Of a stretch of 64,000 bases of DNA, positions 27,001-30,000 are shown piece after piece. The DNA is from Carcharhinus longimanus (lineage: Eukaryota), in assembly GCA_030264375.1 (NCBI GenBank), contig JASCQW010000112.1, forward strand, positions 31,301,529 to 31,365,528, in the 5' to 3' direction. A program made the position numbers. Position 1 is the stretch's first letter. Every line of letters starts with the position of its first letter.

Positions 27001-30000
27001 CAACCACCATTAGAAATTGGCCAAGTGACATAAGTGTAGGCTTCAGTGTTCTTAGCAATACAGGATCACAATGGCAAAACACAAGCTTACATCCTCACAT
27101 GAAAGCTATTGTTTTTAGCTGTATTACAAAGATGTCAGTAGCTCCTTCCCAACACATCTCTACAGCAACATGCTAGCAGGAACAGCACCAAAAGAGGGGG
27201 TCTGGTCACTATCACAAAGCTGCTAGTGGGATCTTGCTGTGCAAACTGGCTCTTCTGTAAGAAGTATTTAATTGGTTGTAAATTCTAGGGATGTTCCGAG
27301 GTCAGGAAAGGTACAACATAAATACCAAGTTTTGTTGGTAGCTACATAAGATTCTATTTACTAAACGACACAAGCAGAGTACATATGCAAATCGTCTGCT
27401 CAACTTCATGTTAAAAGTCTGACAACACCAGGTTTTAGTCCAACCTATTTATTTGATAATATTCTCACAAGCTTTCGAGGGGACTGCCTNNNNNNNNNNN
27501 NNNNNNNNNNNNNNNNNNNNNNNNNNNNNNNNNNNNNNNNNNNNNNNNNNNNNNNNNNNNNNNNNNNNNNNNNNNNNNNNNNNNNNNNNTGGACTAAAAC
27601 CTGGTGTTGTCAGACTTTTTACTGTGTTTACGCCAGTCCAACGCCGGCATACCCACATCACAACTTCATGTTGCCAGTCCCATTACAAAGCTTCAGAGGC
27701 AACTGGAACAATGCCTTCTGGTGTAAATTCGAAATAGCAAGAAGCCCTCCCCCAAGAATGCGCTGATCTATTTTACATGGCAGAACACTATTACCAGCAG
27801 GCACCCAGGCGAACTCAGCCCACTGGAGGCAGCACCGAGTTAAAACCGCTCCCGACTTATAGCAACGGTTTCACGTCGAGTTTACTTCTCATTCCGCACT
27901 GTATCTTTAATCCAAGAAAATGACTCCTCACCTTGAGGTTTTCATAGTTAAGGTCAGTTTTGTGCTTGTCAGTAGGTTTATAGCCACCGTGACGGTCTCG
28001 AATTACTGGGTCAAAGAGGTCCTTGAAAACCTCATAGGATTCTTCATCACCAGCAACACAACCTACTGTCATAATAAATGGGTGACCTGTACAGGGAGAA
28101 GAAAAGGGGGACAGATCCATCTTAATGCACGTAGACCTTCCGTTAATTGATACATGCAAGGTTAATAATTAAAAATCAGCCGTTCAGTGCGAGAAGCCGT
28201 GTTTATTTTAACTAGAAGACAAGCATAAAGCAGCATGTCTTCAAAAATATTTGAACTAACTTTTTGTTTTGACTGGGAGCAACTTTTTCCAATATTATGA
28301 TTGGGATGGATCACTGATCATTACATCTTCTAACGTATTTACTTTAGAGTGAAATATACATGTTTGCAAAGGCATAAAAATATCAAGTGGTTATATCACC
28401 AGGGGTAGTTTTACGTCTGGTGATAACGTGGCGATTTATCGCAGACAAAGCATCCCGGAGCCGACCACATTGTAAAGTCTCTCCACCCAATCTGATGTGA
28501 TCAATAATCTCAATTTAAAATGTTTTACCGGGATTATCAACCCCTGTCTGAATTACATCATCCAAAGTGAAGCCACTGGGGGTGGATTTGTTTTGGAGTT
28601 TCTTGTAGAGGTCCAGAGTGAGCACCTTGGCCATGTGGTTGTTGTGTTTGCTCAGGTCGGGGAACTCTTCCTGGGCCGACAGCCTCTTTATCTTTAGCGG
28701 GGCCATGGCGGGGGAGGCTCACAGCTACACGGAATGAAAACCAGATACAACAATGAGACGGATCACACATCACATTCGCCATCCACTATCCCCCCTTTTT
28801 ACAGAAGGTCGCTGGCCGTGGACATCTCAATCCATTCGGGGAGTGGGGTAGTATCTGAAAGCCATGAGGCTAAAACCAAGGACAACCATTATAAAAACGA
28901 GGATTATCACTTTTTAAAAAAGTTAACGATCCTCGCTGGTTTAGTTTGTAGGCAGGCTACTAACACAGCCGACAAAACAAAGTGGGGGGTTTGGGGTCAA
29001 TATTTTTCCTCATTGGTGATTCCCTGGTGGCCTTTGGAAAGCAACACCTTCTGTAAGCAAGGGGAGAGCAGACGGCTCGTCCGAATGCGGCTTTTACCTG
29101 GGTTGTCAACCCCGGTCTGAATGACATCGTCAAGGGTAAATCCGCTGGGGGTCTGCTTATCTCGCAGCTTGCTGTACAAGTCCAGGGTCAGGACTTTAGC
29201 CATGTGGTTGTTATGTTGGCTTAAATCCGGGAATTCTTCCTTAGCGGAATATTTCATCTTCAGAAGGTTGTGGCTGTTGCTGAATGGCATGGTTACCGCT
29301 TTACTGCAACACAAACAAGAGGGTTTTATGTATACACACACACAAATGAATCCGATTTAGTGCGGATTCCCGGTGTTAAGACTTTGAATTGTTTTGGTCT
29401 AACTGATGTAAATAATGCTTATTAAGAATTCAAATTGAGTCCCATTTGCAGATTTTTAAAACAAAACATGCCATTCAGCAAGAATGCGAGTGAATTCGAA
29501 AACTAATTAAATAATCCGACATTTACAAAGTGCTTGAAATAGATAATCTAAAAGCAACTTCTGAGTGAATGCGGCAGTCCTTTGCATCTTTCAGACGCTC
29601 TAATCCCCTCGCAATCAGAGCAATGACTAAACACGATTTATTTTTAAAAAAAATATAAATCTCGACATTTAGGGACGTTAAACACCTTTCTTGCCCTTTC
29701 CATCCTTCTAGAAAGGCGATTTCATTGCCGATTAATTAATAATAACCCCTTGACATCCGCGTTACAGAAGACCTTATTGGATTCTCAAACAACCTTACGT
29801 TTACGTAAATTCCTCGTCCTTCCTGACCCTTTCGCATTGTATTCCAAGCAGAGAATTTAAGGGCAATTGAAGTACAGCAGCTATGTGTTAGGTCCAGATG
29901 TCACAGATTAGAGCCAATGGATTAACACAAATACCATTCGTGATCCTTTCCAATACAAATAGCCGGCCGGGGTGGGGGAAGAGAGGAGAAAGAGCTTTTC

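What the first reader, a model, noticed from the sequence alone, without database searches (positions are those of the whole stretch)
28529..29303. Two intact, anciently duplicated first coding exons in shark CKB: a chicken Ba/Bb-type isoform switch in a cartilaginous fish
Seen: two paralogous exons separated by a 373-nt intron, each with its own acceptor, ATG and G|GTAAAA phase-1 donor, both in frame with exon 3. Over the 47 alignable codons (EEFPDL...VDNP) 42 residues are identical, yet 25 of those 42 codons differ synonymously by manual count, which indicates an old duplication with both copies under purifying selection. Predicted products are 381 and 376 aa. Known, from memory: chicken CKB makes Bb (MPFSNSH..) and a 5-aa shorter Ba (MAQL..RL..EEEYPDL) by mutually exclusive second exons, while mammalian CKB uses one. 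Inference: the switch is ancestral to jawed vertebrates rather than a bird peculiarity, and the basic shark N-terminus (MAPLKIKR) may change localisation or dimer partners. I cannot tell whether this is already annotated in sharks.
Basis: partly seen in the sequence, partly recalled or inferred. Interest (0 to 1): 0.78.

Follow-up and report, generated by a model that had tools for sequence, protein, structure and literature searches.

The report
Shark CKB: two alternative start exons
A shark brain-type creatine kinase gene carries two intact, anciently duplicated versions of its first coding exon, the same layout that gives chicken two enzyme isoforms, which suggests the layout dates back to early jawed vertebrates.

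Summary
On the minus strand lie exon 2b (29303..29098, ATG 29290) and exon 2a (28724..28529, ATG 28706), 373 nt apart. Both end G|GTAAAA in phase 1 and both are in frame with exon 3. Over 47 codons, 42 residues are identical and 25 of those use different codons. Synonymous sites are saturated (pS 0.93, dN 0.09). None of 200,000 random placements of the same 37 substitutions keeps the frame open with 5 or fewer residue changes. The gene is a complete CKB orthologue of 381 or 376 codons, by coordinate arithmetic.

Exon 2a shares its length (59 codons) and its MA.L...RL start with bird and turtle Ba exons and with teleost "testis isozyme" creatine kinases. In an exon tree these form one clade (98/97). 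That signal lies only in the first 12 residues, and AU tests stop just short of rejecting a shark-only duplication (p 0.054 and 0.088).

Not shown here: use of 2a in mRNA, mutual exclusivity, and whether shark annotations already list the isoform. Including both exons gives a premature stop.

Verdict: a real feature and a new member of the known chicken Ba/Bb kind. The ancient origin is likely. Interest is moderate.

The parts
30539..30683 (-). Promoter-like block upstream of the gene: CRE-like GATGACGTC (30683-30675), GC box (30673-30667), CCAAT (30611-30602), TATATAA (30583-30577), and further CCAAT words (30576-30569, 30547-30539)
   Evidence: Motif positions. CpG o/e is 0.5-1.2 across 29300-30899 against 0.23 for the window. 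The assignment as promoter is inference; no transcript data.
30452..30555 (-). Putative non-coding exon 1. The 3' end is CCATCCAG|GTAAGG, last exon base 30452. The 5' end is guessed at about 25-30 nt after the TATA word.
   Evidence: Sequence printed, coordinates. No ATG is seen between about 30555 and 30452 in that printout. Inference only.
29464..29481 (-). Intron-1 arm of an 18-nt inverted repeat (17/18 complementary) whose partner (29277-29294) covers the exon 2b start codon. The stem encloses the 2b branch region and 3' splice site.
   Evidence: I1; 0 of 300 shuffles reach the alignment score; 241-nt fold, z -2.70, 1 of 200 shuffles folds as well; the stem persists in the MFE and centroid of an 831-nt fold, z -3.02, 0 of 20 shuffles. 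A regulatory role is a hypothesis.
29098..29303 (-). Exon 2b: first coding exon, b type, 64 whole codons plus 1 base, ATG at 29290, [23 protein letters not shown]...
   Evidence: 62 of 64 residues identical to the Carcharodon CKB exon (97%). Pfam ATP-gua_PtransN, residues 24-64.
28725..29097 (-). 373-nt intron between the two copies. It holds an internal 19-nt inverted repeat (29046-29064 / 28791-28809, 84% complementary).
28529..28724 (-). Exon 2a: alternative first coding exon, a type, 59 whole codons plus 1 base, ATG at 28706 in the context cccgcc[22 protein letters not shown]...
   Evidence: Pfam ATP-gua_PtransN, residues 19-59.
27932..28086 (-). Exon 3 (155 nt), shared by both forms
26625..26757 (-). 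Exon 4 (133 nt)
   Evidence: The N run 27490-27589 lies in the intron before it and was left as it is.
23829..24000 (-). Exon 5 (172 nt)
20548..20671 (-). Exon 6 (124 nt)
20277..20466 (-). Exon 7 (190 nt)
10260..10438 (-). Coding part of the last exon (176 nt plus TAA at 10262-10260), after an intron of about 9.8 kb

Best explanation
The window holds a complete elasmobranch CKB gene whose first coding exon exists as two tandem, homologous copies.

Most likely mechanism: one TATA/CCAAT promoter and a non-coding exon 1 (about 30555-30452) feed a pre-mRNA in which exon 1 is spliced either to exon 2b or to exon 2a, never productively to both. This yields two CKB subunits of 381 and 376 residues. 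They differ in the first 12-17 residues and at 5 positions of the first helices of the N-terminal domain.

Mutual exclusivity is enforced at least by reading frame. Exon 2a is 196 nt long, so an mRNA carrying 2b and then 2a runs into a TGA inside 2a.

The a-type exon is orthologous to the Ba exon of birds and turtles and to the first coding exon of teleost 'testis isozyme' creatine kinases. The duplication therefore predates the split of cartilaginous and bony vertebrates.

Shown here: the two intact exons, their constraint, the gene structure, the frame consequence, and the shared a-type signature.
Inferred: exon 1, the common promoter, actual use of 2a, tissue regulation, and any effect on localisation or dimer choice.
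For: - Both exons have an ATG, an acceptor, an identical G|GTAAAA phase-1 donor and an open frame that continues into exon 3.
- Synonymous sites are saturated while dN is 0.09. 0 of 200,000 random placements of the 37 differences keep 5 or fewer residue changes and an open frame.
- Similarity ends exactly at the exon edges plus the donor hexamer.
- Reading from 2b into 2a meets a stop after 54 codons.
- The gene is CKB. 366-367 identical residues in the tblastn pieces for the 381-aa Stegostoma and Carcharodon CKB queries, against 317-328 for the 381-aa shark CKM queries. Pfam domains fit, and a GCD14/TRMT61A-like exon lies head-to-head at 46089-46460.
- 113 of the 120 best hits to the 2a peptide are bird models that contain a b-type start followed by an a-type start, the same order as in the shark.
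- All a-type segments are 59 residues up to ..VDNP and all b-type segments 64, apart from the Latimeria record (66), which opens with two extra residues before its Met.
- Identity of the first 12 residues to shark 2a: teleost testis type 4-9 of 12, bird/turtle Ba 5 of 12, every b-type or CKM exon tested 1-3 of 12.
- In the exon tree of 47 rows, the a types and testis types form one starred clade (98/97, branch 0.59), and win_2b sits with the chondrichthyan b exons (90/75).
- A single promoter-like block with a CpG-rich stretch lies upstream, followed by a good donor.
- The title of Wirz et al. [quoted passage not shown]
Against: - No RNA evidence of any kind could be consulted.
- All chondrichthyan CKB representatives retrieved (Stegostoma, Carcharodon, Callorhinchus) carry the b-type start.
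- The AU tests do not reject placing shark 2a with the chondrichthyan b exons (delta lnL 29.5, p 0.054) or with win_2b alone (delta lnL 24.8, p 0.088).
- With the N-terminal columns removed, the tree is unresolved and 2a is nearest to b-type exons.
- Both donors depart from consensus at +5 and +6.
- The CpG-rich stretch also covers 2b and 2a, so an internal start site for 2a is not excluded.
- Shark 2a is more basic than 2b (+1 against -1), whereas bird and turtle a exons are more acidic than their b exons.
Confidence: 0.7

Rival explanations
1. Independent origin. The exon was duplicated separately in the chondrichthyan line and in sauropsids (and the teleost testis-type start arose separately). 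The shared short MA.L...RL start is convergence or chance.
For: AU tests do not reject trees that hold shark 2a with the chondrichthyan b exons (p 0.054) or with win_2b (p 0.088). The 47 conserved columns carry no a-specific signal, and 2a is 89% identical there to its own 2b. Shark 2a and bird Ba share only 5 of the first 12 residues. No a-type exon was seen here for amphibians, squamates, coelacanth, gar or mammals; the representatives retrieved are all b type.
Against: The a types have the same length (59 against 64 codons), the same gene order (b then a) and the same phase. A chain of N-terminal similarity links them: shark to teleost up to 9/12, teleost to bird 3-7/12 (5-7 in 8 of the 10 rows), against 3/12 or fewer to any b type. 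The free tree joins them at 98/97, and the held-together trees are 25-30 log-likelihood units worse. Saturated synonymous sites show that the shark duplication is itself very old.
Confidence: 0.12
2. Relic exon. 2a was once used but is no longer spliced into shark CKB mRNA, or only at noise level. It merely looks intact because shark sequences change slowly.
For: No transcript evidence was available. All shark CKB proteins retrieved are b type. The 2a acceptor has a shorter pyrimidine tract than that of 2b.
Against: ATG in a strong context (cccgccATGG), open frame, acceptor and donor are all intact. Only 9 of the 37 differences fall on codon positions 1 and 2. The exon type is kept in teleosts, turtles and birds. 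The comparison with 2b cannot date a recent loss of function, so this rival is lowered but not excluded.
Confidence: 0.08
3. Alternative promoter rather than alternative splicing. 2a is the first exon of a transcript that starts inside intron 1 or in the 373-nt intron, so the choice is made at transcription initiation.
For: CpG o/e stays at 0.4-0.85 over 27700-29299, far above the window mean of 0.23. So the unmethylated, promoter-like domain covers both exons. Teleost testis-type proteins often carry extra residues before the a-type Met, e.g. 7 in Conger and 11 in Sebastes. This shows that the 5' end of this exon type is evolutionarily flexible.
Against: 2a is preceded by a plausible branch point, pyrimidine tract and AG. 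The only TATA/CCAAT/GC-box cluster found lies at 30539-30683, upstream of both exons. The title of the chicken paper names alternative splicing (title only).
Confidence: 0.12
4. Tandem genes came first. The jawed-vertebrate ancestor had two tandem CKB-type genes, a b-type then an a-type, as Albula has today. Deletions from intron 2 of the first gene to intron 1 of the second produced the two-exon arrangement in sharks and sauropsids.
For: In Albula a b-type gene is directly followed on the same strand by an a-type gene; they are fused in model P0035. The rest-of-protein tree does not resolve when the testis-type genes split from ckb.
Against: It needs the same deletion twice (chondrichthyans and sauropsids), whereas one gene duplication with loss of one exon per copy in ray-finned fishes explains the data. 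Testis-type genes fall inside the CKB group among teleost ckb genes, not outside gnathostome CKB (weakly supported quick tree).
Confidence: 0.08

Closest known systems
Chicken B-creatine kinase Ba/Bb isoproteins from one gene (Wirz et al. 1990, J Biol Chem 265:11656; only the title was seen, in a reference list; the paper itself is not held)
   Same: One CKB gene with two tandem homologous first coding exons, b upstream and a downstream. The a exon is 5 codons shorter and starts MA.L...RL. Both end at ..VDNP|G.
   Different: Shark 2a shares only 5 of its first 12 residues with bird Ba. In the shark the a exon is the more basic one (+1 against -1), while in birds it is the more acidic one. Use in mRNA is documented for chicken but not shown for the shark. 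Bird DNA could not be compared here, only proteins.
Teleost 'creatine kinase, testis isozyme' genes (names as given by NCBI for Conger, Sebastes, Phycodurus and others)
   Same: Their first coding exon is the closest relative of shark 2a: Albula MATLSIKRLSAE against shark [12 protein letters not shown], 9 of 12. It also has 59 residues from that Met to ..VDNP. They lie in one clade with shark 2a and bird Ba.
   Different: They are separate genes with their own exons 3-8, next to a b-type ckb in Albula. Many start translation 7-11 residues further upstream. Whether they have lost a b-type exon, and whether teleost ckb has lost the a-type exon, could not be checked without genomes.
Tandem-duplicated, mutually exclusive homologous exons of vertebrate genes (Abascal et al. 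2015, PMC4494069, abstract read; Lambert et al. 2015, PMC4417111, abstract read)
   Same: Homologous exons of nearly equal length and the same phase, of ancient origin. Possible separation of the two splice forms onto two paralogues after gene duplication, which Abascal et al. report for 11 events.
   Different: Those surveys start from human genes. 'Creatine kinase' does not occur in their main texts (0 occurrences, listing). This pair includes the start codon, so the two exons also bring their own translation starts.
N-terminal lysine 'charge clamps' of muscle-type CK (Hornemann et al. 2000, PMC2175123; abstract and passages read)
   Same: This shows that a few residues in the first ~25 and ~100-115 positions of a cytosolic CK decide its subcellular binding (K8/K24 and K104/K115 for the M-line). 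It is precedent for a localisation role of the region that 2a and 2b exchange. Shark 2a has K where 2b has Q, at the position aligned with K24.
   Different: It concerns M-CK against B-CK, not splice forms. No binding partner is known or tested for the shark a form.

Membership tests
Creatine kinase B-type (CKB orthologue) | ATP:guanido phosphotransferase N- and C-terminal domains across a complete set of coding exons | tested here: met
   Pfam PF02807 on both exon-2 copies and PF00217 on exons 7 and 8. All coding exons were found by tblastn. Boundaries sum to 381 or 376 codons (arithmetic only).
Creatine kinase B-type (CKB orthologue) | Closer to CKB than to CKM of related species | tested here: met
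   366-367 identical residues in the tblastn pieces for the 381-aa Stegostoma and Carcharodon CKB queries, against 328 and 317 for the 381-aa Stegostoma and Scyliorhinus CKM queries.
Creatine kinase B-type (CKB orthologue) | Conserved neighbourhood (TRMT61A next to CKB; that this is the tetrapod neighbour is recalled, not tested) | tested here: inconclusive
   An exon with a GCD14 domain (E 5e-25) lies at 46089-46460 on the opposite strand. No other genome could be compared.
Chicken-type Ba/Bb alternative first coding exons of CKB | Two tandem homologous copies of the first coding exon inside one gene, b upstream of a | tested here: met
   Shark. Birds: 113 of 120 models carry b then a.
Chicken-type Ba/Bb alternative first coding exons of CKB | The a exon is 5 codons shorter, with its own ATG and an MA.L...RL start | tested here: met
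   59 against 64 codons in shark, birds and turtle. M1, A2, L4, R8 and L9 are shared by shark 2a and bird/turtle Ba.
Chicken-type Ba/Bb alternative first coding exons of CKB | The a exon groups with other a exons rather than with the b exon of its own species | tested here: inconclusive
   The free tree gives an a-type plus testis-type clade at 98/97. AU p is 0.054 and 0.088 for the alternative placements, and there is no resolution once the N-terminal columns are dropped.
Chicken-type Ba/Bb alternative first coding exons of CKB | Both exons are used in mRNA, in a mutually exclusive way | not testable with these tools
   No transcript data. Only the frame consequence of double inclusion was tested: a stop after 54 codons.
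Chicken-type Ba/Bb alternative first coding exons of CKB | The a form is more acidic than the b form (that this is the origin of the names is recalled) | tested here: not met
   Net charge of the exon-encoded part: shark a +1, b -1. Gallus a -3, b -2. Columba -3 and -1. Pterocles -3 and -2.
Mutually exclusive homologous exon pair (general kind) | Similar length, same phase at both ends, sequence homology, and frame shift or stop if both are included | tested here: met
   206 and 196 nt, both phase 1 at the donor, 75% nucleotide identity over 157 nt. 196 is not a multiple of 3, and a TGA is met inside 2a.

The most novel reading that the evidence does not exclude
The a/b choice of first coding exon in CKB is a feature of the jawed-vertebrate ancestor; that the cartilaginous-bony fish split is over 400 million years old is general knowledge, not tested here. 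It survives as alternative exons in sharks, turtles and birds. In ray-finned fishes it was resolved by gene duplication into two genes, ckb with the b exon and 'testis isozyme' with the a exon, a case of splice-form separation. It was lost in mammals. In the shark the choice may be set by an 18-bp intron-exon stem that hides the 3' splice site and start codon of exon 2b.
Probability: 0.4. Interest if true: 0.6.

Novelty: new member of a known kind. Interest (0 to 1): 0.48.

Why it matters
The library searches found no paper on them outside birds.
- If the shark exon is used, the a/b switch is an old vertebrate device for making two cytosolic creatine kinases from one gene. The region exchanged is one where, in the muscle isoenzyme, a few residues decide subcellular anchoring (PMC2175123).
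- It would also give the teleost 'testis isozyme' gene an explanation as the gene-level descendant of the a splice form. That would add a case to the few documented separations of homologous alternative exons onto paralogues (11 events in PMC4494069, abstract). Human-centred surveys cannot see this case, because by general knowledge mammalian CKB has one such exon.
- Practically, 113 of the 120 best hits to the 2a peptide are bird CKB models that wrongly string both exons into one protein. Annotators need to know about this exon pair.

Tried and rejected
- Search for annotated shark a-type proteins with the whole 2a peptide. The best 120 of 604 hits were taken up by bird models that match twice, so single-exon matches were pushed off the list. 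A 20-residue query that would have avoided this was below the tool's minimum of 40 and was dropped.
- The listing of cluster members on the shark, chimaera, coelacanth and other clusters, then on the Carcharodon cluster alone. So whether 'isoform X1' of Carcharodon has an a-type partner stays unknown.
- Exon tree on the 47 conserved columns only: no resolution.
- Rest-of-protein tree to date the teleost testis-type gene (quick method): the testis type falls within the CKB group, but its relation to teleost ckb is unresolved.
- Second creatine kinase gene in the window: none, only the one exon set plus the extra exon-2 copy.
- Longer inverted copy of exon 2b in intron 1: only 18 nt align.
- Rfam over the whole window: no family at gathering score.
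- Pfam on eight long open frames elsewhere in the window: nothing.
- Platypus, Mugil, Pleuronectes and other over-long CKB models were checked for a hidden second exon-2 copy. No a-type copy was found; only the Coryphaenoides model repeats part of its own b-type exon.
- Literature: seven searches found no paper on a shark, fish or reptile CKB a/b exon pair in the held library. Wirz 1990 is not held. Supplementary files were not consulted.
- Not attempted: structure or complex prediction of the two isoforms, because that needs the joined spliced protein. That step was left out, as were all searches with a joined model. The collections of metagenome and viral contigs are closed, and the genome collection on hand is bacterial and archaeal, so no other vertebrate locus could be fetched.
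Full report
**What is in the sequence.**
The finding lies on the minus strand. Two copies of one exon sit 373 nt apart.
- Exon 2b is 29303..29098, with its ATG at 29290.
- Exon 2a is 28724..28529, with its ATG at 28706.
- Each follows an AG preceded by a pyrimidine-rich tract. 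Each ends G|GTAAAA with one base of a split codon. Each is completed to GGT by the first two bases of exon 3 at 28086.

Over the 47 codons from EEFPDL to VDNP, 42 residues are identical, 25 of those 42 use different codons, and 104 of 141 bases agree. The repeat finder reports the pair independently as a 157-nt direct repeat of 75% identity.

**Is it more than chance, and is it constrained?**
- The 37 differences fall 6, 3 and 28 on codon positions 1, 2 and 3.
- The proportion of synonymous differences (0.93) is beyond saturation, while dN is 0.09.
- When the same 23 transitions and 14 transversions are placed at random on copy b, the mean is 22.5 residue changes and the minimum 14. Only 35% of trials stay free of stops. 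0 of 200,000 trials give 5 or fewer changes with an open frame.
- Similarity ends at the exon edges plus the donor hexamer. The flanking 60 nt on either side are 18/60 and 19/60 identical. The longest identical run is 14 nt, so there is no gene-conversion tract.

The duplication is therefore old, and both copies have been kept as coding sequence for most of the time since. This comparison cannot rule out a recent loss of use.

**The gene.**
tblastn with a stored bony-fish creatine kinase finds one complete set of coding exons on the minus strand and no second gene. Boundaries read give:
- exon 3: 28086..27932
- exon 4: 26757..26625
- exon 5: 24000..23829
- exon 6: 20671..20548
- exon 7: 20466..20277
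- last coding stretch: 10438..10263, followed by TAA

All searches were made exon by exon, and the joined step was left out.

The pieces are 366-367 residues identical to the 381-aa CKB queries of Stegostoma and Carcharodon, against 317-328 for the 381-aa shark CKM queries. Pfam places both exon-2 copies at the start of the N-terminal phosphagen-kinase domain. A GCD14 (TRMT61A-like) exon lies head-to-head at 46089-46460. The window is thus an elasmobranch CKB locus. No retrieved protein is identical to it, so I name no species. The N run at 27490-27589 lies in the intron between exons 3 and 4 and was left as it is.

**Relatives of the a-type exon.**
The 2a peptide, searched alone, returned 604 hits, of which the best 120 were listed. 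Of those 120, 113 are bird 'KCRB' models that contain a b-type start (MPFSNSHN...) followed by an a-type start (MAQLNNQRL...). These are gene predictions that string both alternative exons into one protein. They show that birds have the same order as the shark, b upstream and a downstream. The chicken entry P0056 shows the 64- and 59-residue segments directly.

A tortoise protein (P0218) starts with the a type.

One hit, the Albula model P0035, fuses two adjacent genes. The second begins MATLSIKRLSAE..., against shark [12 protein letters not shown].... A search with that second gene showed that teleost genes named 'creatine kinase, testis isozyme' carry this start. They come from Conger, Aldrovandia, Gymnothorax, Sebastes, Gadus, Phycodurus, Aulostomus, Dunckerocampus and others. 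Many have 7-11 extra residues in front.

From the aligned Met to ..VDNP, every a-type or testis-type segment with such a Met is 59 residues and every b-type or CKM segment 64, apart from the Latimeria record (66), which opens with two extra residues before its Met. Identity of the first 12 residues to shark 2a is:
- 4-9 of 12 for the ten teleost testis-type rows
- 5 of 12 for the three bird and turtle Ba rows listed
- 1-3 of 12 for the seven b-type or CKM rows listed

**Trees, with their limits.**
- A maximum-likelihood tree was built from 47 exon-2 peptides: the window's two copies and named proteins only, 64 columns. It joins shark 2a, bird and turtle Ba and the teleost testis type in one starred clade (98/97, branch 0.59). 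It puts win_2b with the chondrichthyan b exons (90/75).
- The AU test does not quite reject the alternatives. Holding shark 2a with the four chondrichthyan b exons costs 29.5 log-likelihood units (p 0.054). Holding it with win_2b alone costs 24.8 (p 0.088).
- When only the 47 conserved columns are used, the tree collapses and 2a is nearest to b-type exons.
- The case for common descent of the a type therefore rests on the N-terminal 12 residues, the 5-codon length difference, the exon order and the phase. It does not rest on the conserved core.
- A quick tree of the rest of the protein (42 named rows) puts the testis-type genes inside the CKB group among teleost ckb genes, but it does not resolve when they arose.

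**How it most likely works.**
Upstream of exon 2b lies a CpG-rich stretch (o/e 0.5-1.2 over 29300-30899, against 0.23 for the window). It holds one compact promoter-like block on the minus strand: a CRE-like word, a GC box, CCAAT, TATATAA and two more CCAAT words between 30683 and 30539. About 100 nt without an ATG follow, ending in CCATCCAG|GTAAGG at 30452.

I take this as the promoter and a non-coding exon 1. I propose that exon 1 is spliced to either 2b or 2a. If both were included, the frame set by the 2b ATG would run into TGA after 54 codons inside 2a. Such mRNAs would be unproductive and, by the usual rule, subject to nonsense-mediated decay. That gives mutual exclusivity at the level of product.

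The two proteins would differ in the first 12-17 residues and at five positions of the first helices. The net charge of the exon-encoded part is +1 for a and -1 for b. In birds and the turtle the a exon is the more acidic one, so the charge contrast is not conserved in direction.

No solved chain of the 28 matched aligns to the first six residues of 2a, except a sea-cucumber arginine kinase (3ju5). The best match of the 2a peptide is the Torpedo M chain 1vrp. Work on muscle CK shows that lysines at positions 8 and 24, with 104 and 115, decide M-line binding (PMC2175123, abstract and passages). Shark 2a has K where 2b has Q at the position aligned with 24. A role in localisation or partner choice is thus plausible, but it is inference.

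**A possible regulatory structure.**
An 18-nt stretch of intron 1 (29464-29481) is complementary at 17 of 18 positions to 29277-29294, which spans the 2b start codon.
- No shuffle of the exon reaches that alignment score (0 of 300).
- In a 241-nt fold the two arms close a stem of about 25 pairs around the 2b branch region and 3' splice site (z -2.70; 1 of 200 shuffles folds as well).
- The stem persists in the MFE and centroid of an 831-nt fold (z -3.02; 0 of 20 shuffles).
- A second pairing (29046-29064 with 28791-28809, 84%) closes most of the 373-nt intron.

Such structures could bias the choice between 2b and 2a. Without other elasmobranch sequences I could not test conservation, so this stays a lead.

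**What is known, and novelty.**
The chicken precedent is real: the title of Wirz et al. 1990 appears in a reference list. The paper is not held, so its details are recalled, not read.

Seven full-text searches found no paper describing an a/b exon pair of CKB in sharks, fishes or reptiles, or linking the teleost testis isozyme to the chicken Ba exon. The library lacks most subscription journals, and supplements were closed, so this is weak evidence of absence.

Automated annotation may already list the shark isoform.

Surveys of homologous alternative exons start from human genes (PMC4494069, abstract) and do not mention creatine kinase in their main texts (listing). I rate the shark exon as a new member of a known kind.

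**Verdict.**
The reading as a chicken-type a/b pair is well supported structurally, and an origin before the split of cartilaginous and bony vertebrates is likely. Actual use, mutual exclusivity, regulation and function remain to be shown.

The link to the teleost testis isozyme, a possible case of splice forms separated onto two genes, is the most interesting extension. I put the overall explanation at 0.7 and interest at about 0.5.

Noticed in passing
window 29464-29481 and 29277-29294: An 18-nt inverted repeat (17/18) between intron 1 and the start-codon region of exon 2b. The predicted stem encloses the 2b 3' splice site and persists in a larger fold.
   Followed up: partly
window 29046-29064 and 28791-28809: A 19-nt inverted repeat (84%) inside the 373-nt intron. 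It brings the 2b donor side close to the region upstream of the 2a acceptor in the predicted folds.
   Followed up: partly
window 30452-30683 (minus strand): A compact promoter-like block (CRE-like word, GC box, three CCAAT words, TATATAA), then about 100 nt without ATG ending in a good donor. Likely the CKB promoter and non-coding exon 1.
   Followed up: partly
window 46089-46460 (+): An open frame with a GCD14 tRNA methyltransferase domain (E 5e-25). It is probably an exon of a TRMT61A-like gene lying head-to-head with CKB.
   Followed up: partly
proteins P0001-P0120: 113 of the 120 best hits are bird CKB gene models that contain both the b and the a exon in one protein and often lack later exons. 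This is a systematic annotation error caused by the exon pair.
   Followed up: partly
protein P0272 (Nestor notabilis CKB isoform X1, cluster of 165 members): Its first exon looks chimeric: a b-type start of 13 residues followed by a-type residues (LPPDEEYPDLST...RDRVTPSGF). This is either a model artefact or exchange between the two bird exons.
   Followed up: no
proteins P0237, P0238, P0241, P0246, P0251, P0289: Teleost testis-type creatine kinases carry 7-11 extra residues (e.g. MENITTK, MSANVAKICEK) before the Met that aligns with the shark and bird a-type start.
   Followed up: no
proteins P0092, P0170: Syngnathid 'testis isozyme-like' models of 713-724 residues consist of two full creatine kinase units. 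This suggests further tandem copies of this gene in pipefishes, or fused predictions.
   Followed up: no
window 13221-13377, 16986-17312, 31045-31138, 32585-32836, 48655-48926, 54695-54953, 6142-6301, 56522-56681: Copies of one or two interspersed repeat families (75-88% identity) in the introns and flanks of CKB. One copy sits just upstream of the promoter-like block.
   Followed up: partly
window 28647-28649 (codon 20 of exon 2a): Shark 2a has Lys where 2b has Gln, at the position aligned with K24 of muscle CK, one of the M-line binding lysines. The 2a peptide scores best against M-type chains in the PDB (1vrp, 89 bits, against 81.5 for chicken B-type 1qh4).
   Followed up: no
table (1crk, 1qk1, 3ju5): The a-type exon aligns residue for residue (same numbering) with mature mitochondrial CK chains and with a sea-cucumber arginine kinase. 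So its shorter N-terminus has the length seen in those relatives.
   Followed up: no
window 10439-20276: The last intron of CKB is about 9.8 kb, far longer than the others, and holds an N run (13378-13477) and repeat copies.
   Followed up: no
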